NCBI RefSeq assembly: GCF_045865695.1
Contig: NZ_BAACAP010000227.1
Coordinates: 37,824-69,823 of the forward strand
Direction: 5' to 3'
Length of the DNA stretch: 32,000 nt
From: Scytonema sp. NUACC26
GTDB lineage: Bacteria; Cyanobacteriota; Cyanobacteriia; Cyanobacteriales; Nostocaceae
Shown here: positions 20,766-32,000 of the stretch, one piece after another
How the letters are laid out: each line of letters starts with the position of its first letter
Numbering within the stretch: position 1 is the first letter of the stretch
Position numbers and translations under genes: made by a program
The notes under the pieces: model-generated
What the model saw: the letters and a program-made list of their open reading frames with translations, nothing else
Told to the model about the DNA's origin: nothing
Databases searched by the model: none

Positions 20766-21179
20766 TTAGCGATCGCCTGCTATTTCATCTGGCATTAAAT
20801 CCATTACATTTTTGTATACTTCTGATGCCAGATGAAATGCTTTCTTAAGTTCTCCTGGGCTAGGATTGAAGTCTTCCGTTGCTTCTATAGGATATCGATA
20901 TGTCTGGTTATACTGGCTTAAATATCCTGCTTCTTTTAAGATAGTTGTGAATTCTGGTTGAAATGCTGAAGCTAGTTTTACTAAGGTGTTGATATTATGA
21001 GTATCTCCTGGATCGGTATCGTGGAGAATAAGAAAACCTTTAAGAGCTTTTTCTGCTGCTTGCTGGCAATGGTAAATAGCTATGTCTGGTAGCTCTGAAG
21101 ATAACTTTCGGGCAGCAAATAAATCACGTTGAGCTTTTTTCAACCAAAACTGTACCAAAATGCGCTTTGCTTTGTCCAT
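20766..21179 (-). CDS. HEPN-domain protein (toxin partner of a HEPN-MNT module)
   Basis: 137 aa. WLKKAQRDLFAARKL...AIYHCQQAAEKALKGFL is a typical HEPN helix-1/2 pattern. It lies immediately downstream of a minimal nucleotidyltransferase. Confidence 0.7.
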   Translation of the reverse strand: MDKAKRILVQFWLKKAQRDLFAARKLSSELPDIAIYHCQQAAEKALKGFLILHDTDPGDTHNINTLVKLASAFQPEFTTILKEAGYLSQYNQTYRYPIEATEDFNPSPGELKKAFHLASEVYKNVMDLMPDEIAGDR

Positions 21180-21495
21180 ACAGTAATTTTCCTTTTTCTA
21201 CAATTTTTCTAGTAAGGGAAGCAGGAACTGTTTTAAATGTTTCTACATCAGAACGGGTTTTTATCATAACATCTACGTCAACCATTAAATCCTCTAAAGC
21301 ATTTAATGCTCGTACTCCCCACTCAATACGGTCAAATTCCGCAATCTCATCATTTACAATGATGCATATATCTAGATCGCTGTACTTATTTGGTGTTCCC
21401 CAAGCATAAGAGCCAAAAAGAATAATTTCTTCCGGATTAAGTTCAGCTACTAAACGACGGGTTACTTCAGTAATCACCTCAGAATTAATGTTCAT
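21124..21495 (-). CDS. Minimal nucleotidyltransferase (MNT) domain protein (antitoxin partner)
   Basis: 123 aa. Pol-beta-type NTase motif ILFGSYAWGTPNKYSDLDICII plus a downstream DVDV. The 3' end overlaps the HEPN ORF by 56 nt. Confidence 0.8.
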   Translation of the reverse strand: MNINSEVITEVTRRLVAELNPEEIILFGSYAWGTPNKYSDLDICIIVNDEIAEFDRIEWGVRALNALEDLMVDVDVMIKTRSDVETFKTVPASLTRKIVEKGKLLYGQSKAHFGTVLVEKSST

Positions 21496-24770: not shown

Positions 24771-25295
24771 ATGGCTAACGGTACTTCTGGAAACGATACA
24801 CTTTACGGAACTGACTTGGCTGATAGTATCTACGCTTATGAAGGAGATGATACTGTTTACGCTGAGGCTGGTGACGATTACGTTGATGCTTGGTATGGCA
24901 ATGACACCGTTTATGGTGAAGCTGGTAACGACACGTTACTGGGTTATTACGGTGATGACTTCCTAAGTGGTGGTCGTGGAGACGATACTATCAAAGGTGA
25001 AGCTGGCAATGACACTCTCGTTGGTGGTTATGGTAAAGATACACTGTGGGGCGGTGATGGAGCTGATAAGTTTGTCTTTAACTACTTGTATGAAGGCGTT
25101 GATGTTATCAAAGACTTCCAGTGGACTGAAGGCGACAAAATTCTAGTTTCCGAAGCTGGATTTGGTGCTTGGTCTAATAACGACTTTAGCTATAACAGCA
25201 CAACTGGTGCTTTGTCTTTCCTTGGCGTTCAATTTGCCACTATTGAAAACAAGCCTTCTGGTTTTTCAACCAATCTTGATGTTCAACTCATCTAA
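24771..25295 (+). CDS. Small calcium-binding protein with RTX/hemolysin-type nonapeptide repeats
   Basis: 174 aa. About 8 consecutive GxxGxD-type units (GNDTLYGTD, GDDTVYAEAGDD, GNDTVYGEAGNDTLLGYYGDDFLSGGRGDDTIKGEAGNDTLVGGYGKDTLWGGDGADKFVF). A Shine-Dalgarno-like AAAGGAG lies upstream. Confidence 0.8.
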   Translation: MANGTSGNDTLYGTDLADSIYAYEGDDTVYAEAGDDYVDAWYGNDTVYGEAGNDTLLGYYGDDFLSGGRGDDTIKGEAGNDTLVGGYGKDTLWGGDGADKFVFNYLYEGVDVIKDFQWTEGDKILVSEAGFGAWSNNDFSYNSTTGALSFLGVQFATIENKPSGFSTNLDVQLI

Positions 25296-25462: not shown

Positions 25463-25491
25463 CCCACCGTCTTGCACGAGTGGGTTTTTTT
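25463..25491 (+). terminator. Intrinsic terminator downstream of the RTX-repeat gene
   Basis: CCCACCGT-cttgc-ACGAGTGGG (8 bp stem, one bulge) followed by TTTTTTT. It overlaps the stop codon of the convergent ATPase gene. Confidence 0.55.
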
Positions 25492-26923
25492 ATGTTTGTT
25501 CGTCACTACTTAAACGCATCTGAAAATATTGACGATATAAATTACAACGAGGCTGGACTTTATTACCAGCGAGTTTGACTAACCCCATACTTTGTAACTG
25601 ATAAGCTGATATAGGTTCTATTTGTACGGGATGATGTGTATGAATCACTTGTTGAAAAGCTGCTGCTAATTTGAGGTGTTCTTGCAAATCTAACCAGTAT
25701 TTCCATAAGTGAGGGCGGTAAATACCAGCTTCAGTTGGTGCTTCTGCTAAAAGTTGCTCCACTGTTATATCTGGATGGCTTTTAAGATGGGCAAAAGCTA
25801 ATTCTAACAGGTAGGGGTGTCCTCCTAATAATTCCATTAGTTGTGCAACGGAGTTTGATGCGATCGCAAGCCCATGTTGCTGAGACAAAGCCAAGACTTG
25901 CTCCTGAGTAAACTCAGACAACTCAATGGGTAACCCAACATTAAAGGGGGATTGATTAATATTGAGTTGAATATAAACATCAGTTGAGTGTAAGATTGCC
26001 AATCTTAACTTTTGCCAAAGCCGACGACTTCTTGCCTTTTCATACCAAGAACGGAGTAATCCAAAAAAGTCTTCGTAAATTTCTGGATGGGGAAACAGTA
26101 AATCGACATCATCCAAGCAGAGCACAAGGGGATTTGTCAGTTCAGTCAAAAGATATTCCTCAAAATATGTCGTACAACTGACTTTAGAACCTATACCCTC
26201 TTCATCCCAGTATTCATCCAATTCCACTGGTAACCGAAGTTCGCGACTAATATTGATGCAAAACCAACGTAAGAACTTATTTAAGTTGGTAAAATGTATG
26301 CTCCTATCTGCCAGTTTAAAACTCAAGTAAACAATAGAGTAGTCTTTTTCTACTACTTGACTCAACACTCGTGTCATTAAATACGTTTTCCCCATAAGGC
26401 TAGGGGCTTTAATCCGGATGAGAGAACCTGGTTGTAAAATATGTTCGTAGCAGAGAGATTCTATAGGAGGACGTTCTACATAAACCTCTATTTTTGAAAC
26501 TTCGTTCTTTTCTATTTGACTTCGTTCTTGTTGAATTTGCGTATTTTGTTTTAGCGAGTCTTCTTTGTTACTAGCAATATTTCTAGAAGTCTGTTTATCC
26601 CCTTCTGCGCCCGCTAAAACTTGTAAATTTCTACCGACTTCACTGAAAGATTGTTTCTCCCAATACCTTTTTAACGCTTCCTTAAAGTTACTTTTCTTAA
26701 CTTTTTCTCCCAAAGCATCGCTTAACAGTTTCCAAAATTTAGGCGCTACATCTTGACTAATGTAGGTTGTAGCGTATTGGTGTTTAGCAGCAATAGTATC
26801 ATAGTCCTCGCGCTGCCAAGCTCCCTTCACGATCGCGATTTCAAGGTCTGTTAGTTTTCTGTTGAATTTTGAATGTACGACTTGATTAGCTGCTTCAATA
26901 GCTTCGTTTAAATTGAAATCCAT
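25490..26923 (-). CDS. AAA_35-type (STAND-like) ATPase with an N-terminal HTH-like domain
   Basis: 477 aa. N-terminus LTDLEIAIVKGAWQREDYDTIAAKHQYATTYISQDVAPKFWKLLSDALGEKVKKSNFKEAL resembles the sigma-r4/LuxR-like module seen on many cyanobacterial STAND/WD40 proteins. Then YVERPPIESLCYEHILQPGSLIRIKAPSLMGKTYLM (P-loop) and VLCLDDVDLLF (Walker B). Confidence 0.7.
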   Translation of the reverse strand: MDFNLNEAIEAANQVVHSKFNRKLTDLEIAIVKGAWQREDYDTIAAKHQYATTYISQDVAPKFWKLLSDALGEKVKKSNFKEALKRYWEKQSFSEVGRNLQVLAGAEGDKQTSRNIASNKEDSLKQNTQIQQERSQIEKNEVSKIEVYVERPPIESLCYEHILQPGSLIRIKAPSLMGKTYLMTRVLSQVVEKDYSIVYLSFKLADRSIHFTNLNKFLRWFCINISRELRLPVELDEYWDEEGIGSKVSCTTYFEEYLLTELTNPLVLCLDDVDLLFPHPEIYEDFFGLLRSWYEKARSRRLWQKLRLAILHSTDVYIQLNINQSPFNVGLPIELSEFTQEQVLALSQQHGLAIASNSVAQLMELLGGHPYLLELAFAHLKSHPDITVEQLLAEAPTEAGIYRPHLWKYWLDLQEHLKLAAAFQQVIHTHHPVQIEPISAYQLQSMGLVKLAGNKVQPRCNLYRQYFQMRLSSDEQT

Positions 26924-27154: not shown

Positions 27155-27185
27155 GTAGTTTGGTTTCGTTCCTCAACCCAACATA
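27155..27185. repeat. Hairpin-forming dispersed repeat (GTTTGGTTtcgttcctcAACCCAAC); inverted copy at 30979..31008
   Basis: The 25-nt core differs at 1 position from the reverse complement of gttgggttgaggaacgaaacccaac at 30981..31005. Confidence 0.7.
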
Positions 27186-27206
27186 CAGTTGAGATTATCT
27201 GAATTA

Positions 27207-27340
27207 ACCTGAATTTTCTGACCTTTTCTAACTTGTTGGAAGAAAAATTAATTCAAACACTCCTGAATTTAACTCAACTCCTTTCCGAAAGGATAAATCA
27301 TACTAACAATAGAAAGCAACAAACAAGCTTTCCAACAAAA
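27207..27340 (+). promoter_or_regulatory. Upstream module A (probable promoter plus 5' leader) of the cargo genes; paralogous to 28579..28721
   Basis: Blocks shared with module B: ACCTGAATTTTCTGACYTTTTCT, CTGAATTTARCTCAACTCCT, AATCATACTAAYAAYAGAAAGCAACMAAMAAGCTTTCCARCAAA. CATACT is a possible -10 element. Confidence 0.35.
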
Positions 27341-27376: not shown

Positions 27377-27775
27377 ATGTCTACTTCTATTTCTCAAACA
27401 CAACTATTTACTGAAATGACAGCAGAAGAAGGAGCAACACTAAGCGGTGGAACTGCTCAAGTTTACCTCAAACATTTTGTGATTTACGACACTCAAGAAT
27501 GGCCTCGAGACGAACCTTATCTAAAAGTTGATGGTAGCACGATTTGGTCTAAAGATGGTGCGGGAAATGGCATTCACGCTATTGACAAAGCATTTAATAT
27601 CACTGGTACTTATGATACACTTTCCCTTTGGGAAAATGATTCCTGGCCAAATAATGATGAATTTTTAGGTGAAAATAAAATTTACTCTTGGCAACGAGGA
27701 ACAGATTTAGAACTCTCTTTCACTGGGGAAGGTGCTAACTACAAACTTGTCTATGATGTTTATGATGTTTATTAA
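27377..27775 (+). CDS. Double-glycine-leader secreted protein, paralog 1 (132 aa; predicted 25-aa leader, 107-aa mature domain)
   Basis: ATG at 27377 preceded by AAGGAG (27364..27369). Leader MSTSISQTQLFTEMTAEEGATLSGG ends in GG with hydrophobic -4/-12 and acidic -8/-9 residues. The ORF-track start (TTG 27233) is probably too far upstream. A C39-peptidase ABC transporter lies downstream. Confidence 0.75.
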   Translation: MSTSISQTQLFTEMTAEEGATLSGGTAQVYLKHFVIYDTQEWPRDEPYLKVDGSTIWSKDGAGNGIHAIDKAFNITGTYDTLSLWENDSWPNNDEFLGENKIYSWQRGTDLELSFTGEGANYKLVYDVYDVY

Positions 27776-27922
27776 AATCAAGCGGTTTCAGGTATCTAAA
27801 TCCATCACCTCAAAAGAGTAAATTCTACCCAACTAACTCTCAAACATATTAACGTTGGAAAGCTAATTCGCTTTCCAGCGAAAAATATCCAAGCACAAAC
27901 TAGAAAAATTAAGGAGTCAAAA

Positions 27923-28318
27923 ATGTCTACTTCTATTTCTCAAACACAACTATTTACTGAAATGACAGCAGAAGAAGGAGCAACACTAAGCGGTGGAACT
28001 GCTCAAGTTTACCTCAAACATTTTGTGATTTACGAGACTCAAGAATGGCCTCAAGACGAACCTTATCTAAAAGTTGGTGACAAAACAATTTGGTCTAAAG
28101 ACGGTGCGGGAAAGGGCATTCACGCTATTGACAAAGCATTTAAGATTACTGATGCTTATGATACACTTTCCCTTTGGGAAAATGATTCCTGGCCAAATAA
28201 TGATGAATTTTTAGGTGAAAATAAAATTTACTCTTGGCAACGAGGAACAGATTTGGAACTTTCTTTCACTGGGGAAGGTGCTAATTACAAACTTGTATAC
28301 GATGTTTACTCTGTTTAA
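27923..28318 (+). CDS. Double-glycine-leader secreted protein, paralog 2 (131 aa)
   Basis: The same 29 nt upstream and the first 37 codons are identical to paralog 1, including the leader and SD. There are 10 amino-acid replacements plus a shorter C-terminus. Confidence 0.75.
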   Translation: MSTSISQTQLFTEMTAEEGATLSGGTAQVYLKHFVIYETQEWPQDEPYLKVGDKTIWSKDGAGKGIHAIDKAFKITDAYDTLSLWENDSWPNNDEFLGENKIYSWQRGTDLELSFTGEGANYKLVYDVYSV

Positions 28319-28379: not shown

Positions 28380-28578
28380 ATAGAAATTCTATCTGATATG
28401 TGAAATCCACGTACTACGTTACATGGGTAATGCCTACCAAAAGTCTGATTTGGTGGGCTACAGTACTACAGTATTTAAAATTTTTCAGAAATTATCTGGC
28501 GTTCATATAAATAACAAACGAGGGAGATTGTACATTATCCTACCCAGTTACTCTAAATGGGTGCAAATAATTAGGGTG

Positions 28579-28721
28579 ACCTGAATTTTCTGACTTTTTC
28601 TGACTTTTTCTGACTTTTTAAACAAAAAATGAATTGAGGAGCTTCTGAATTTAGCTCAACTCCTATACAGAATTATCAATCATACTAATAACAGAAAGCA
28701 ACCAAAAAGCTTTCCAGCAAA
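28579..28721 (+). promoter_or_regulatory. Upstream module B (probable promoter plus leader) of the ABC exporter; paralog of 27207..27340, with a triplicated 10-mer
   Basis: Same conserved blocks as module A. TGACTTTTTC is repeated three times at 28591..28620. Confidence 0.35.
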
Positions 28722-28786: not shown

Positions 28787-30973
28787 ATGAAATACCAAGT
28801 TGTTCTACAACACAGTGAAGAAGACTGTGGTGCTGCCTGTATTGCCACTATTGCTAAACATTACGGACGTACTTTTGCTATCAGTCGAGTGCGGGAAGCT
28901 GTGGGTACTGGTTCGCGAGGCACTTCCTTACTGGGTTTGAAACGGGGTGCAGAAGCACTGGGGTTTAATGCTCGTCAGGTAAAAGCTAATCCTGAAATGC
29001 TCGATCGCTTAATCGAAGTCCCTTTACCAGCAATTATCCACTGGAAAGGATATCACTGGGTTGTACTACACGGTCAAAAAGGGAAAAAATACATTGTTGC
29101 TGACCCCAGCCTTGGTATGCGTTATCTGACTCGCAAAGAGTTAATGATGGGTTGGGTCAATGGTGTCATGCTTTTGCTAGAACCAGACTACAGCCGTTTT
29201 CTAGAACAACCAGAAGATAAAATTGGCGGTTTTGGACGTTTTATTGCCCGTGCTTGGCCTTATCGCTTTATTCTTGCTCAGGCAATTGCCATTAATATAG
29301 CCATTGGTCTCCTCTCTCTCGCCTCTCCCTTGATGATGCAATTACTCACCGATGATGTGTTGGTACGGGGAGATACTCAATTGTTAACAACAGTGGCAAT
29401 TGGGGTGATTACGATGAATTTTATTAGAAGTGCGATCGCATTAGTACAATCCCACCTCATCGGTCACTTCGGTCAGCGCTTGCAATTCGGATTAATTCTA
29501 GAATACGGACGCAAACTGTTACACTTACCCCTGTCATACTTTGAAGGTCGTCGTAGTGGGGAAGTCGTCAGCCGCATTTCTGATGTAAACGCCATCAACG
29601 CTCTTGTTTCCCAAATTGTTCTCGGTTTACCCAGCCAATTTTTTATCGCCGTGGTTTCCTTGGGGATTATGCTGTTCTACAGTTGGCAACTATCCATAGC
29701 TTCTTTTGTTGCATTTATCATCCTGACTTGCATTAATCTGCTTTTTGTACCGATGATGCGGAATAAAACCCGTAAATCCATCGTTTTACGCACAGAAAAT
29801 CAAGGTTTTCTGGTAGAAACTTTTCGCGGCGTCCAAGTGCTAAAAACAACCCAAGCAACCCCCCAAGCCTGGGAAGAGTATCAAACAAATTACGGTCGCC
29901 TTGCCAACCTGGGGTGGAGTACGATGAAACTGGGGTTATACAGTGGTACTATTACCGGTCTTATTTCCACATTCACCAATATTGCCTTACTTTGGTTGGG
30001 AAGTTACTTAGTCATCAATCATACATTAACAATTGGTCAACTTCTCATGTTTAACGGTATGAGTGGTAACTTCCTCGGTTTCTTAGGTTCAGCAATTGGC
30101 TTAATTGATGAATTTATTACCGCCCAAGTTGTCATTCAGCGCCTGACAGAAGTTATTGACGCCACCCCAGAAGACGAAAACGACTTCAAAAAACCTTGGG
30201 CGCAAATTCCCGGTAATGCAGATATCACCTGTACCAACCTCAACTTCCACCATGCAGGTAGAGTAGACCTACTGCAAGACTTTTCTCTCACTATTCCCGG
30301 CGGTCAAGTCATCGCTTTAGTTGGTAAATCAGGTTGTGGCAAAAGTACCTTAGCTAAATTGATAACTGGTTTGTATCAAACTCAATCAGGTAATATCTCT
30401 TATGATATATACAACCAACAAGATTTATCTTTAGAATGCTTGCGACAGCAAATCGTTCTCGTACCTCAAGAACCCCACTTTTGGAGTCGCTCAATTGTTG
30501 ACAACTTCCGCTTCAGTTATCCCAACATTACTTTTGAACAAATTGTACGAGCTTGTCAAATTGCTGGTGCAGATGAATTCATTAACAAACTACCCGACAA
30601 ATACCAAACAGTTTTAGGAGAATTTGGCGCAAATCTTTCTGGCGGACAAAAGCAAAGATTAGCTATTGCCAGAGCAATTGTAACCGATCCACCCGTACTC
30701 ATTTTAGACGAATCCACAGGTGCTCTCGACCCAGTTAGCGAAGCCGAAGTTCTCACTAAACTGCTACACCATCGACGAGGTAAAACCACAATAACGATCA
30801 GCCATCGTCCCAAAGTCATTCAACGAGCCGATTGGATTGTACTCCTCGAACAAGGTCGCTTAAAAATCCAAGGAACTCCAGAATATCTCCGACAAATTCC
30901 AGGCGAACACTTACATTTTCTCGAAGAAGGTAACATTCAAAGGTCATTGTTAACAGTCAGCAGTAACCAGTGA
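28787..30973 (+). CDS. Peptidase-C39-domain bacteriocin-type ABC transporter (leader-cleaving exporter)
   Basis: 728 aa. N-terminal C39 domain with catalytic Cys context QHSEEDCGAACIATIAKHYG and HWVVL His region. Six-helix TMD. NBD with GKSGCGKST (Walker A), LSGGQKQRLAIARA (signature) and LILDEST (Walker B). Confidence 0.95.
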   Translation: MKYQVVLQHSEEDCGAACIATIAKHYGRTFAISRVREAVGTGSRGTSLLGLKRGAEALGFNARQVKANPEMLDRLIEVPLPAIIHWKGYHWVVLHGQKGKKYIVADPSLGMRYLTRKELMMGWVNGVMLLLEPDYSRFLEQPEDKIGGFGRFIARAWPYRFILAQAIAINIAIGLLSLASPLMMQLLTDDVLVRGDTQLLTTVAIGVITMNFIRSAIALVQSHLIGHFGQRLQFGLILEYGRKLLHLPLSYFEGRRSGEVVSRISDVNAINALVSQIVLGLPSQFFIAVVSLGIMLFYSWQLSIASFVAFIILTCINLLFVPMMRNKTRKSIVLRTENQGFLVETFRGVQVLKTTQATPQAWEEYQTNYGRLANLGWSTMKLGLYSGTITGLISTFTNIALLWLGSYLVINHTLTIGQLLMFNGMSGNFLGFLGSAIGLIDEFITAQVVIQRLTEVIDATPEDENDFKKPWAQIPGNADITCTNLNFHHAGRVDLLQDFSLTIPGGQVIALVGKSGCGKSTLAKLITGLYQTQSGNISYDIYNQQDLSLECLRQQIVLVPQEPHFWSRSIVDNFRFSYPNITFEQIVRACQIAGADEFINKLPDKYQTVLGEFGANLSGGQKQRLAIARAIVTDPPVLILDESTGALDPVSEAEVLTKLLHHRRGKTTITISHRPKVIQRADWIVLLEQGRLKIQGTPEYLRQIPGEHLHFLEEGNIQRSLLTVSSNQ

Positions 30974-31129: not shown

Positions 31130-32000
31130 ATGTTCGGCTACTTCAAATCAGATTCTATCCCCTTCAACCAAGAAAACGATTTTCTGCCTCCCCTGAGTCG
31201 TTGGACAACTTACGGTGGAATGTTTATCTTAGGGGTCATAAGTTTAGTAGTTCCAATTGCTTCTGTGAGTAAATATAAAGAGGTTGTAAAAACAGAAGCT
31301 GTTATCCGTCCTGTTGGTGAATTGCGAATTGTGCAAGCAGCAACAGAAGGTCAAGTCATACAAATCTCTGTTCAAGAAAATCAATTTATTAAAAAAGGGG
31401 ATATCATAGCCACAATTGATGACTCCCGCCTACAAACTAAAAAAAGCCAACTACAAAGTAGTATTCACCAAGCGAAGTTACAACTTATTCAAATTAACTC
31501 TCAAATTGGTGCTCTTAACAATCAAATCCGCGCTGAAACTGACCGCGTAAACCGCACTATTGCTTCTGCTGAAGCCGAACTTAGCGGGCGCATTCGTTCA
31601 TACCAAGATAAAAAAATAACGACTGTTGCAGAAGTTCAAGAGGCTGAAGCTAATGTTGGAATATCTGAAGAGGAATTGCATAAAGCTCATGCAGAGTTAA
31701 GATCGGCACAAGCAAATTTAAATGCTGCTCGCTCGGCTTTGATAGCTGCACGTTCTAAACAGAATCGATATGAAATGGCGGCTATTGTAGGAGCGCTGTC
31801 AAAAGACCAGTTAGAAGAAGCACAACTCGCTGCTAAACAACAAGAACAAGCAGTGGAAGCACAAGATGCAGTTGTGGAAGCGCAAAAACAAACTATCGCT
31901 CGCCTCAAACAAGCTGTTTCTGCATCTGTTGCCAAACGACAACGAGCACAAGTTGCTTTAAATCCTAGCTCTTCAGAAGTCGCGATCGCAACGGAACGTA
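31130..32000 (+). CDS. HlyD-family periplasmic adaptor (membrane fusion protein), 3' end beyond the window
   Basis: My own translation; the ORF is not in the track because it has no stop in the window. MFGYFKSDSIPFNQENDFLPPLSRWTTYGGMFILGVISLVVPIASVSKYKEVVKTEAVIRPVGELRIVQAATEGQVIQISVQENQFIKKGDIIATIDDSRLQ..., followed by a long coiled-coil (QL/AE/AQ-rich) segment. There are no stops to position 32000. Confidence 0.85.
   Translation, partial: MFGYFKSDSIPFNQENDFLPPLSRWTTYGGMFILGVISLVVPIASVSKYKEVVKTEAVIRPVGELRIVQAATEGQVIQISVQENQFIKKGDIIATIDDSRLQTKKSQLQSSIHQAKLQLIQINSQIGALNNQIRAETDRVNRTIASAEAELSGRIRSYQDKKITTVAEVQEAEANVGISEEELHKAHAELRSAQANLNAARSALIAARSKQNRYEMAAIVGALSKDQLEEAQLAAKQQEQAVEAQDAVVEAQKQTIARLKQAVSASVAKRQRAQVALNPSSSEVAIATER

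What the first reader, a model, noticed from the sequence alone, without database searches (positions are those of the whole stretch)
27377..28318. GG-leader cargo proteins whose mature domain has a C2-domain-like sequence logic
After the predicted cleavage site (LSGG|TAQ), the mature sequence reads VYLKHFVIYDTQEWPRDEPYLKVDG...(about 45 aa)...LSLWENDSWPNNDEFLGENKIY.

This echoes two hallmark segments of eukaryotic C2 (Ca2+/lipid-binding beta-sandwich) domains as I remember them: the x-D-x(n)-SDPYVKV strand-loop, and the later VxDxDxxxxDDFIGE segment that supplies the Ca2+-binding aspartates. Domain length is similar, at about 107 aa against about 120 aa.

A C2-like domain exported through a bacteriocin-type transporter would be an unusual effector, for example one that targets membranes. 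An RTX Ca2+-binding protein is encoded 2 kb upstream. The resemblance is pattern-level only. I do not recognise the proteins as members of a named family.
Basis: inference. Interest (0 to 1): 0.8.

Follow-up and report, generated by a model that had tools for sequence, protein, structure and literature searches.

The report
Secreted bacterial C2-like calcium-loop domain
Two neighbouring genes in a filamentous cyanobacterium encode small proteins with a bacteriocin-type export leader, and their mature part is predicted with high confidence to fold like a eukaryotic C2 membrane-docking domain, a fold a 2012 survey said was unknown outside eukaryotes.

Summary

- **Genes.** Window 27377-27775 and 27923-28318 are tandem paralogues (132 and 131 aa, 92% identical). 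The best database match is a hypothetical protein of Scytonema sp. NUACC26.
- **Export.** Each has a 25-residue double-glycine leader. A C39-peptidase ABC exporter and an HlyD-type adaptor lie directly downstream. This module recurs in four other cyanobacterial loci, always with a divergently transcribed AAA_35 NTPase.
- **Fold.** Two AlphaFold2 models of the 106-aa mature domain (pLDDT 88.7 and 93.8) give an eight-stranded beta-sandwich. The top 50 Foldseek PDB matches of both models are all C2 domains.
- **Sequence.** The protein itself hits no Pfam or NCBIfam model convincingly. A profile of its relatives hits only C2 proteins in the PDB at E below 0.1. Pfam C2 passes its threshold on three multi-repeat relatives.
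- **Calcium loops.** Acidic positions in the two loops that bind calcium in C2 domains are 95-100% conserved across 80 relatives. A tryptophan sits at each loop tip.

Calcium and membrane binding, cleavage and biological role remain inferred. The closest locus has 92-96% identical flanks but only 41-43% identical mature cargo. I class it as a new, unannotated prokaryotic variant of a known fold, carried by a known export system.

The parts
27377..27775 (+). Cargo gene 1: 132-aa precursor. Leader is 27377-27451; mature C2-like domain is 27452-27772.
   Evidence: ORF and sequence. It is 92% identical to gene 2. It shares the RBS and 5' region of gene 2.
27923..28318 (+). Cargo gene 2: 131-aa precursor. 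Leader is 27923-27997; mature C2-like domain is 27998-28315.
   Evidence: It is 100% identical to a hypothetical protein of Scytonema sp. NUACC26. AF2 models have pLDDT 88.7 and 93.8. Foldseek top 50 are all C2 domains.
27491..27514 (+). Gene 1 loop between strands 1 and 2 (TQEWPRDE). This is the proposed calcium-binding loop 1 with tip Trp.
   Evidence: Translation.
27632..27661 (+). Gene 1 loop between strands 5 and 6 (ENDSWPNNDE). This is the proposed calcium-binding loop 3 with tip Trp.
   Evidence: Translation. It aligns to the C2 DxD...DDFLG segment.
28037..28060 (+). Gene 2 loop 1 (TQEWPQDE).
28178..28207 (+). Gene 2 loop 3 (ENDSWPNNDE).
28787..30973 (+). Peptidase-containing ABC exporter (C39 peptidase, ABC membrane and ABC ATPase domains). 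Predicted to cleave the leader after Gly-Gly and export the cargo.
   Evidence: Pfam Peptidase_C39 7e-35, ABC_membrane 3e-36, ABC_tran 3e-33. NCBIfam bacteriocin_ABC / HlyB-type. The sequence shows QHSEEDCGAAC, HWVVL and ADP motifs. It is adjacent to cargo in 5 loci.
31130..32000 (+). HlyD-family periplasmic adaptor, cut by the window end.
   Evidence: Pfam Biotin_lipoyl_2 5.6e-8 and a weak HlyD_3 hit. Full-length 496-501-aa orthologues with Beta-barrel_AprE hits sit in the same position in L002, L003, L004 and L009.
25490..26923 (-). Divergently transcribed AAA_35 STAND-type NTPase. Orthologues carry an N-terminal HTH_VMAP-M9 hit. Candidate regulator of the module.
   Evidence: Pfam AAA_35 2e-142. 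It is found immediately upstream and divergent in L002, L003, L004, L006, L009 and L010. In L009 and L010 the outer flanks are unrelated.
27182..27339 (+). Conserved non-coding element upstream of the first cargo gene (copy 1).
   Evidence: Direct repeat with 28564-28721. It is conserved in L002, L003, L004 and L009 upstream of cargo, ABC and precursor-like genes.
28564..28721 (+). Copy 2 of the same element, upstream of the ABC exporter gene.
   Evidence: No Rfam family matches.

Best explanation
Two tandem paralogous genes encode roughly 14-kDa precursors with a 25-residue double-glycine leader. The adjacent C39-peptidase ABC transporter, with its HlyD-type adaptor and presumably an outer-membrane channel encoded elsewhere, cleaves after Gly24-Gly25. 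It then exports a 106/107-aa acidic, cysteine-free domain (pI about 4.5).

That domain is a minimal C2-type eight-stranded beta-sandwich. Its connectivity matches the circular-permutation variant of C2 called type II: calcium loop 1 lies between strands 1 and 2, and loop 3 between strands 5 and 6. It belongs to a previously unannotated prokaryotic branch of the C2 superfamily.

Outside the cell, the conserved acidic residues of the two loops are proposed to bind Ca2+. In mature numbering these are E16, D20 and E21 in loop 1, and E61, D63, D69 and E70 in loop 3. The domain would then dock on an anionic surface, inserting the loop-tip tryptophans W17 and W65. Candidate surfaces are a phospholipid or lipopolysaccharide membrane, or an acidic sheath polysaccharide. 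This is how C2 domains of perforin, cPLA2 or synaptotagmin dock.

Status of each step:
- Shown: gene structure, leader, transporter linkage, fold prediction, and the profile-level link to C2.
- Inferred: cleavage and export, calcium binding, and membrane docking.
- Open: the biological role. Fast replacement of the mature domain between near-identical loci points to an inter-organism or surface-interaction function rather than housekeeping.
For: **Export**
- The leader E-M-x3-E-x3-L-x-G-G fits the cyanobacterial consensus ELx3E(I/L)x2(I/V)xG(G/A) quoted in PMC3140520 at every specified position but one.
- The leader is 89% conserved where the mature part has fallen to 41%.
- C39-ABC and HlyD genes directly follow the cargo in the window and in L002, L003, L004 and L009.
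- Other family members carry similar leaders.

**Fold**
- AF2 gives pLDDT 88.7 / pTM 0.80 with 7 sequences and 93.8 / 0.86 with 46 sequences, with the same 8 strands.
- The Foldseek PDB top 50 are all C2 domains in both runs: Munc13-1, perforin, cPLA2, intersectin, dysferlin. E-values go down to 5e-5 and TM-scores are 0.5-0.65.

**Sequence**
- An exhaustive HMMER search finds 175 cluster representatives. Eight of the 150 scanned match Pfam C2.
- These include a genuine 4xC2 protein and three multi-repeat relatives above the gathering score: P0025 at 32.4, P0034 at 27.5 and P0130 at 24.2 bits, against a threshold of 22.
- The 80-sequence family profile hits only C2 proteins in the PDB at E below 0.1: dysferlin 4e-6, otoferlin 7e-5, Piccolo C2A 3e-3, E-Syt2 7e-3.
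- hhalign against a small C2 alignment gives 93% probability and E 3.4e-7. The recalled Syt1 sequence used there was verified identical to PDB chains.

**Calcium loops**
- Across 80 relatives, position 16 is D/E in 95%, D20 in 100%, E21 in 90%, position 61 D/E in 100%, D63 in 100% and position 70 D/E in 99%.
- Aromatic or hydrophobic residues sit at the loop tips in 47 and 61 of 80 relatives.
- W17 follows the first acidic ligand and W65 lies two residues after D63. These are the same relative positions as Syt1 M173 and F234, known from my own knowledge to insert into the membrane.

**Binding-module use**
- The domain is fused to secreted hydrolases or toxins in relatives: Peptidase_C25, subtilase, glutamine deamidase toxin, metallophosphatase.
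Against: - The protein itself has no hit to Pfam C2, even at E up to 10.
- A narrow 7-sequence profile finds no C2 in the PDB.
- Sequence-level support covers mainly strand 5, loop 3 and strand 6. Single-domain E-values are modest (3e-3), and the best E-values are sums of weak repeats.
- TM-scores of 0.5-0.65 with rmsd about 4 A indicate the same fold but a distant relationship.
- I had no model coordinates, so clustering of the acidic side chains in space was not measured.
- Many C2 domains bind neither calcium nor lipid.
- The first loop-1 acidic position is Glu here, and that loop is one residue shorter than in most relatives.
- No experiment bears on cleavage, secretion, calcium or ligand.
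- dN/dS is below 1 everywhere, so there is no direct signal of an arms race.
Confidence: 0.5

Rival explanations
1. Extracellular matrix or adhesion protein. The exported C2-like domain is an abundant structural or adhesive component of the sheath or biofilm, bridging anionic polysaccharides or cells through calcium. This would be analogous in role to the GG-motif EbfG proteins of Synechococcus elongatus.
For: - EbfG1-4 are small GG-motif proteins exported by a C39 peptidase transporter (PteB) and enable biofilm formation (PMC4997328).
- Gene dosage looks amplified: 2 copies here and 6 in L002, in two allele groups whose copies differ by 0-3 nt.
- Selection is purifying.
- No immunity gene is present; the spacer to the ABC gene in L003 is only 169 bp.
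- Scytonema and Tolypothrix are sheathed (own knowledge).
Against: - No sequence or fold relation to EbfG proteins was tested.
- C2 domains classically bind lipid head groups, not polysaccharide.
- The strong divergence of the mature domain between near-identical loci is unusual for a purely structural protein.
Confidence: 0.25
2. Protein bacteriocin or antagonistic effector. The C2-like domain binds the outer membrane or a receptor of competing cyanobacteria, or the plasma membrane of eukaryotic grazers or algae, and damages it.
For: - The locus has the architecture that Wang et al. classed as cyanobacterial bacteriocin clusters: tandem GG precursors of 28-164 aa in arrays of 1-16 copies, with C39-ABC and HlyD (PMC3140520).
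- The mature domain is only 41-43% identical in a locus whose flanks are 92-96% identical.
- Mixed cargo sets occur in L009.
- The closest structural matches include the membrane-docking C2 of the pore-former perforin.
- Relatives are fused to toxin or protease domains.
Against: - No immunity gene or lytic/pore-forming module is present.
- A 12-kDa soluble acidic sandwich has no obvious killing mechanism.
- dN/dS is 0.15-0.3.
- There is no PADLOC or toxin-family hit.
Confidence: 0.15
3. Convergent or non-functional resemblance. The domain is a generic beta-sandwich whose acidic loops serve only for folding or stability, for example calcium-driven folding after export as in RTX proteins. It has no membrane or ligand docking and no true homology with C2.
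For: - The protein has no direct Pfam C2 hit.
- Profile similarity is confined to one strand-loop-strand segment rich in Asp.
- TM-scores are moderate.
- Substrates of type 1 secretion (ABC exporter plus adaptor) are generally thought to be exported unfolded, so calcium-triggered folding outside the cell would be useful (own knowledge).
Against: - All 50 best fold matches in two independent models are C2 domains and nothing else.
- The motifs are collinear with C2 landmarks along the whole domain in the extended alignment: DEPY on SDPY, VW on PVWNE, and LWExD...DDFLG.
- Pfam C2 passes its own threshold on multi-repeat relatives.
- Aromatic tip residues are conserved.
Confidence: 0.1

Closest known systems
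Eukaryotic C2 domains of type II topology (the circular-permutation variant), e.g. the perforin C2, cPLA2-alpha C2 and Munc13-1 C2B domains
   Same: - Eight-stranded beta-sandwich of similar size, giving the best fold matches.
- The acidic D...D / DxD...D pattern lies in the loops after strand 1 and strand 5.
- Aromatic residues sit at the loop tips.
- The conserved (W/Y)-(D/E)-x-D...DDFLG segment is detectable by profiles.
   Different: - It is prokaryotic and shorter (106 aa against 120-135).
- It is free-standing rather than part of a multidomain protein.
- It is exported by a double-glycine leader.
- It has family-specific signatures: TED/TQE, G-A-x-Y near the C-terminus, and a Cys at position 11 in most relatives but Ile here.
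- It has no direct Pfam C2 hit.
- Its calcium and lipid binding are unknown.
Cyanobacterial double-glycine precursor clusters with C39-ABC and HlyD ('bacteriocin gene clusters', Wang et al. 2011, PMC3140520)
   Same: - The leader motif matches.
- Precursor genes are arrayed in tandem.
- The exporter is a short-type C39 ABC transporter followed by HlyD.
   Different: - The cargo is a folded 12-kDa beta-sandwich domain, not a Gly/Cys/Ser/Thr-rich core peptide.
- No modification enzymes are in the cluster.
- A conserved AAA_35 NTPase partner is present.
EbfG1-4 / PteB of Synechococcus elongatus PCC 7942 (PMC4997328)
   Same: Small GG-motif proteins from paralogous genes are secreted by a C39 peptidase transporter in a cyanobacterium. 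Their role is non-antibiotic (biofilm).
   Different: - No sequence relation was established.
- The EbfG fold differs (amyloid-prone, from my own knowledge).
- The role of the proteins studied here is unknown.
C-terminal membrane-binding domain of Clostridium perfringens alpha-toxin (PLAT / C2-like; own knowledge, mentioned in PMC6986089)
   Same: It is a bacterial secreted beta-sandwich that docks on membranes with calcium.
   Different: - It belongs to the PLAT/LH2 fold family and is part of a phospholipase.
- It is exported by the Sec pathway.
- It does not appear among the top 50 fold matches here.

Membership tests
C2 domain superfamily (Pfam PF00168 and relatives) | Eight-stranded antiparallel beta-sandwich of about 100-130 residues | tested here: met
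   Two AF2 models with 8 strands, pLDDT 88.7 and 93.8. The Foldseek PDB top 50 are all C2 domains, with E from 5e-5 and TM 0.5-0.65. This is a prediction, not a solved structure.
C2 domain superfamily (Pfam PF00168 and relatives) | The protein itself matches the Pfam C2 model at or above the gathering score | tested here: not met
   No Pfam family is reported at E up to 10 for either window protein. NCBIfam gives nothing for gene 1 and only a sub-threshold GroES match for gene 2.
C2 domain superfamily (Pfam PF00168 and relatives) | Profile-level sequence similarity of its family to bona fide C2 domains | tested here: met
   - The family profile against PDB sequences gives only C2 proteins at E below 0.1: dysferlin 4e-6, otoferlin 7e-5, Piccolo C2A 3e-3.
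- hhalign gives 93% probability and E 3.4e-7 over 46 columns.
- Pfam C2 is above the gathering score on relatives P0025, P0034 and P0130.
- The similarity is restricted mainly to strand 5, loop 3 and strand 6.
C2 domain superfamily (Pfam PF00168 and relatives) | Acidic calcium ligands in loop 1 and loop 3 (this defines the calcium-dependent subset, not all C2 domains) | tested here: met
   - Sequence pattern only: E16, D20, E21, E61, D63, D69 and E70 are present.
- The same columns are 90-100% acidic in 80 relatives and invariant in close homologues.
- Spatial clustering was not measured because no coordinates were available.
C2 domain superfamily (Pfam PF00168 and relatives) | Calcium-dependent binding of phospholipid membranes | not testable with these tools
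   This needs ITC or Tb3+ luminescence and liposome co-sedimentation.
Double-glycine-leader cargo of peptidase-containing ABC transporters | N-terminal leader of 15-30 residues ending in GG/GA, with the conserved E, L/M, E and L/I/V positions | tested here: met
   - ...E13 M14 x3 E18 x3 L22 x G24 G25 was compared with ELx3E(I/L)x2(I/V)xG(G/A) from PMC3140520.
- Only position -7 deviates (Gly).
- The leader is 89% identical where the mature part is 41%.
Double-glycine-leader cargo of peptidase-containing ABC transporters | Adjacent ABC exporter with an N-terminal C39 peptidase domain carrying the catalytic Cys and His | tested here: met
   Pfam Peptidase_C39 7e-35 over residues 2-134. DCG Cys14, HWVVL His and ADP Asp are visible in the sequence. 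The assignment of these as catalytic residues rests on my own knowledge of the family.
Double-glycine-leader cargo of peptidase-containing ABC transporters | Linkage of cargo, exporter and HlyD adaptor conserved across genomes | tested here: met
   L002, L003, L004, L009 and L010. L009 and L010 have unrelated outer flanks.
Double-glycine-leader cargo of peptidase-containing ABC transporters | Demonstrated cleavage after GG and export | not testable with these tools
   This needs exoproteome mass spectrometry and an exporter Cys mutant.
Bacteriocin in the strict sense | Linked immunity gene and antimicrobial activity | tested here: not met
   No conserved ORF lies between cargo and exporter. 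L003 has only 169 bp there. Activity itself is not testable here.
RTX calcium-binding proteins | GGxGxD nonapeptide repeats | tested here: not met
   There is no HemolysinCabind hit in the cargo. The repeats are in a separate 174-aa protein at 24771-25295.

The most novel reading that the evidence does not exclude
These proteins represent a genuine, ancient prokaryotic lineage of calcium-dependent, membrane-docking C2 domains. The lineage includes leaderless, Sec-signal, double-glycine and toxin-fused forms. It would show that the C2 module was not a eukaryotic invention, and would offer a 12-kDa free-standing secreted bacterial C2 as a tractable model. The cyanobacterial GG-exported version would be a new class of extracellular membrane-targeting effector.
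Probability: 0.3. Interest if true: 0.85.

Novelty: new variant of a known kind. Interest (0 to 1): 0.7.

Why it matters
- **Origin of the C2 domain.** C2 domains are one of the main membrane-targeting modules of eukaryotic signalling and trafficking. [quoted passage not shown] I found no later paper in the searchable library that reports a prokaryotic C2 family. This window exposes a bacterial family of 175 cluster representatives at 50% identity. Every member checked in the source databases is named 'hypothetical protein' and has no Pfam model. The family keeps the calcium-ligand pattern. That makes the origin question testable by phylogeny and biochemistry.

- **Cargo range of peptidase ABC exporters.** The finding extends the known cargo of cyanobacterial peptidase-containing ABC exporters from peptides to a folded lipid-binding-type domain.

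- **A possible control circuit.** The finding links that export module to a conserved AAA_35 NTPase and a shared upstream DNA element.

Tried and rejected
- **Direct family scans of the cargo gave nothing useful.** Pfam gave no hit. NCBIfam gave only a 15.7-bit GroES match against a cut-off of 128, which I rejected as noise. PADLOC gave nothing.
- **The narrow 7-sequence profile failed against PDB sequences.** It returned only two insignificant non-C2 hits. The link appeared only with the 80-sequence family profile.
- **The search for related loci was unproductive.** This proved to be a false hit: a 905-aa membrane protein that shares ANYKLVYD by chance.
- **Positive selection was not found.** Nei-Gojobori dN/dS is 0.15-0.31 overall and 0.2-0.64 in the most variable patch, never above 1.
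- **The RTX protein is not a module component.** It is syntenic in L002, L004 and L006 but absent from L003 and L009 and lacks a GG leader.
- **Rfam on the intergenic regions found nothing** (one 0.89 E-value snoRNA hit).
- **Some literature searches were uninformative.** These were the searches for VMAP-M9 / AAA_35 and for the PDB entries 3W56/3W57.
- **Taxon names for distant relatives could not be obtained**.
- **Model coordinates are not exposed.** I therefore could not measure distances between the acidic side chains.
Full report
**What is at the coordinates**

The finding spans two tandem genes on the + strand: 27377-27775 (132 aa) and 27923-28318 (131 aa). They are 92% identical. They form a 546-bp duplication that begins 33 bp upstream of each ATG and includes an AAGGAG ribosome-binding site. 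ATG 27377 is therefore the real start of gene 1, not the TTG at 27233 listed mechanically.

Both products start MSTSISQTQLFTEMTAEEGATLSGG|TAQ. Gene 2 is 100% identical to a hypothetical protein of Scytonema sp. NUACC26. Only five other close homologues exist in 5.8 billion clustered proteins; those that carry a name are from Nostocales or are metagenomic, and all such names are 'hypothetical'. dN/dS between copies and orthologues is 0.15-0.31, so these are constrained coding genes.

**Export module**

Directly downstream lies a 728-aa ABC transporter with an N-terminal C39 peptidase domain (28787-30973). Pfam scores are Peptidase_C39 7e-35, ABC_membrane 3e-36 and ABC_tran 3e-33. NCBIfam places it with bacteriocin / HlyB-type exporters.

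From 31130 an HlyD-type adaptor runs off the window. Full-length orthologues occupy this position in the related loci.

The leader fits the cyanobacterial double-glycine consensus ELx3E(I/L)x2(I/V)xG(G/A) quoted by Wang et al. (PMC3140520), with only position -7 deviating.

The same module recurs in four other cyanobacterial genomes or metagenomes: L002, L003, L004, and L009 with its metagenomic duplicate L010. It consists of a divergent AAA_35 NTPase, one to six cargo genes, the C39-ABC gene and the HlyD gene. In L009 and L010 the outer flanking genes are unrelated. L002 has six cargo copies in two allele groups, ordered A A B A B B.

In L004 the flanking genes are 92-96% identical to the window and the leader of the two 138-aa cargo copies 89% (68% in the third). 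The mature domains, however, are only 41-43% identical. The leader and transporter are therefore the conserved parts, and the cargo is the part that is replaced.

**Fold**

AlphaFold2 on the mature domain with 7 sequences gave pLDDT 88.7 and pTM 0.80. With 46 sequences it gave 93.8 and 0.86. Both models have the same eight strands.

Foldseek against the PDB returned C2 domains in all of the top 50 places for both models. These include Munc13-1 C2A/C2B, perforin C2, cPLA2 C2, intersectin, MCTP2, dysferlin, otoferlin, CEP120 and PTEN. E-values go down to 5e-5 and TM-scores normalised to the query are 0.5-0.65. No PLAT, Calx-beta or Ig-type entry appears among them.

The conserved loops lie after strand 1 (residues 14-21) and after strand 5 (residues 62-69). 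That is the connectivity of type II C2 domains such as cPLA2 and perforin. This last point is an inference from strand order plus my own knowledge of C2 topology.

**Sequence-level test**

The proteins themselves hit nothing convincing in Pfam or NCBIfam. A narrow profile also finds no C2 in the PDB.

An exhaustive HMMER search of 1.84 billion cluster representatives found 175 relatives at E of 1e-3 or better. Their consensus is LxLxxLxCxxTEDxGxDExYLxVxGxxVW...LxLxExDxxxxDxDDxLG...FxxDGAxYxLxYxV.

Of 150 scanned against Pfam, eight match C2. One is a genuine 4xC2 protein (7.6e-67). Three multi-repeat relatives exceed the C2 gathering score of 22 bits: P0025 at 32.4, P0034 at 27.5 and P0130 at 24.2. 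They lack other eukaryote-specific domains, and P0130 has a signal peptide.

A profile of 80 domain sequences from this family, searched against all PDB sequences, returns only C2 proteins at E below 0.1: dysferlin 4e-6, otoferlin 7e-5, Piccolo C2A 3e-3, a plant C2 protein and E-Syt2.

hhalign against a small C2 alignment gives 93% probability and E 3.4e-7 over 46 columns. That alignment comprised four domains of the 4xC2 protein plus Syt1 C2A, Syt1 C2B and cPLA2 from memory. The Syt1 C2A sequence was verified identical to PDB chains. The extended alignment is collinear over the whole domain: DEPY on SDPY, VW on PVWNE, and LWExD...DDFLG on VWDRD...DDFLG.

The relationship is thus supported by sequence as well as fold. 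It is distant, however, and carried mainly by strand 5, loop 3 and strand 6.

**Calcium-loop logic**

Conservation at the acidic loop positions in the 80-sequence alignment, in mature numbering:

| Position | Residue(s) | Share of 80 |
|---|---|---|
| 16 | D or E | 95% |
| 20 | D | 100% |
| 21 | E | 90% |
| 61 | D or E | 100% |
| 63 | D | 100% |
| 69 | D | 75% |
| 70 | D or E | 99% |

D20 and D63 are two of only three invariant columns. This reproduces the five-Asp pattern of calcium-dependent C2 domains, which in Syt1 is D172, D178, D230, D232 and D238. The Syt1 numbering was checked against the verified sequence; the ligand roles come from my own knowledge.

W17 directly follows the first acidic position, and W65 lies two residues after D63. 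These are the same relative positions as the membrane-inserting Syt1 residues M173 and F234 (own knowledge). Aromatic or hydrophobic residues occupy these loop tips in 47 and 61 of the 80 relatives.

The mature protein is 12.3 kDa, has a pI of about 4.5 and contains no cysteine. I could not measure side-chain distances because model coordinates are not exposed.

**Wider family**

Among 154 relatives, 71 have no N-terminal extension. By my reading of the N-termini listed, about 13 carry double-glycine leaders and about 35 carry Sec/Tat-like signal peptides. The rest are multidomain.

Fusions include Peptidase_C25, subtilase, a papain-fold glutamine-deamidase toxin, a metallophosphatase and an LVIVD propeller. 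There is also a recurrent unannotated C-terminal domain of about 270 aa with a CGPA motif after 2-3 repeats. This is the usage pattern of a targeting or binding module.

Leaderless 112-aa members sit next to ricin-B-lectin proteins, one of which has an Exo_endo_phos domain.

Every member with a source name is called 'hypothetical protein', and all but one have no precomputed Pfam domain.

**Mechanism and rivals**

Best explanation (confidence about 0.5 for the whole chain):
- The precursor is cleaved after G24-G25 by the C39 domain.
- It is exported through the ABC / HlyD / outer-membrane-channel route.
- It then loads calcium on the acidic loops and docks on an anionic surface through the two tryptophans.

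The export step and the fold are well supported. Calcium binding and docking are inferred by homology. The target and the biological role are open.

Three rivals were considered:
- Matrix or adhesion protein, by analogy with EbfG/PteB (PMC4997328). This is favoured by copy-number amplification, purifying selection and the absence of an immunity gene.
- Protein bacteriocin or anti-grazer effector. This is favoured by cluster type and cargo replacement. It is disfavoured by the lack of an immunity gene and of any killing module.
- Mere convergent sandwich with calcium used only for folding. This is disfavoured by the uniform C2 fold matches and the collinear motifs.

**Comparison with what is known, and novelty**

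The export system is a known kind: the cyanobacterial GG-precursor clusters of PMC3140520. The fold is a known kind: C2. The combination, and the existence of a sizeable unannotated prokaryotic C2-like family that retains the calcium-ligand signature, appear new.

Zhang and Aravind stated in 2012 that C2 domains were not known outside eukaryotes and that their origin was unclear (PMC3495828). My full-text searches found no later report of a prokaryotic C2 family. Subscription literature and structure-database annotations could not be checked. In addition, Pfam C2 already grazes a few multi-repeat members.

I therefore rate it a new variant of a known kind, with interest 0.7.

**Other points**

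A roughly 158-nt element upstream of the first cargo gene (27182-27339) is repeated upstream of the ABC gene (28564-28721). It is conserved in the same two places in L002 and L004, upstream of the first cargo gene in L003, and before an extra cargo gene in L004. It also precedes two 65-66-aa ORFs next to a LanM-like gene in L009. It has no Rfam match. It is a candidate shared regulatory element, possibly the target of the divergently encoded AAA_35 protein, whose orthologues carry an HTH_VMAP-M9 hit.

Noticed in passing
window 27182-27339 and 28564-28721; L002 6190-6332 and 9943-10067; L003 4916-5058; L004 7805-7961, 10949-11020 and 11760-11880; L009 13031-13120 and 13486-13576: A conserved non-coding element of about 90-158 nt precedes the first cargo gene and the C39-ABC gene. 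In L009 it also precedes two 65-66-aa ORFs upstream of a LanM-like gene. It contains repeated CTGA(A/C)TTTT motifs and has no Rfam match. It is a candidate shared promoter or 5'UTR regulatory element for double-glycine precursor and exporter genes.
   Followed up: partly
window 25490-26923 (-): An AAA_35 STAND-type NTPase is divergently transcribed from the cargo operon in every locus examined, including loci with unrelated outer flanks. Its orthologues carry an N-terminal HTH_VMAP-M9 hit. It is probably a dedicated regulator or sensor of the export module.
   Followed up: partly
L004 8001-11485 compared with window 27377-28318: The flanking genes are 92-96% identical to the window and the leader of the two 138-aa copies 89% (68% in the third), but the three cargo mature domains are only 41-43% identical. 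This looks like cargo cassette replacement. A TacA1-like antitoxin plus acetyltransferase pair is inserted within the cargo array.
   Followed up: partly
L009 7001-8808: The cluster carries three double-glycine cargo genes: two divergent C2-like ones (128 and 123 aa) and an unrelated 119-aa one. A lanthipeptide synthetase-like gene lies further downstream.
   Followed up: no
L007 3861-6339; L008 329-2216: Leaderless 112-aa members of the C2-like family lie directly downstream of ricin-B-lectin proteins, one of which has an Exo_endo_phos (sphingomyelinase/nuclease-type) domain. This suggests a link to membrane- or glycan-targeting toxins.
   Followed up: no
relatives P0025, P0034, P0130 and P0147: In these proteins, two or three C2-like repeats are followed by a conserved C-terminal domain of about 270 aa. 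The domain has a (P)(L/F/V)CGP(A/T)(A/S) motif and no Pfam match. It may be a new cysteine-dependent effector domain.
   Followed up: no
window 24771-25295 (+): A small 174-aa RTX-repeat protein without a double-glycine leader. It is syntenic in L002, L004 and L006 and diverges fast (60-77% identity against 92-96% for its neighbours). It is absent from L003 and L009.
   Followed up: partly
window 20766-21495 (-): A HEPN (137 aa) and nucleotidyltransferase (123 aa) gene pair with overlapping ORFs, typical of a HEPN/MNT toxin-antitoxin module.
   Followed up: no
L002 14111-16396; L003 13197-14040; L004 15952-16405: A large protein with a TPS (two-partner-secretion) domain follows the HlyD gene in three loci. 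The equivalent position lies beyond the end of the window.
   Followed up: no
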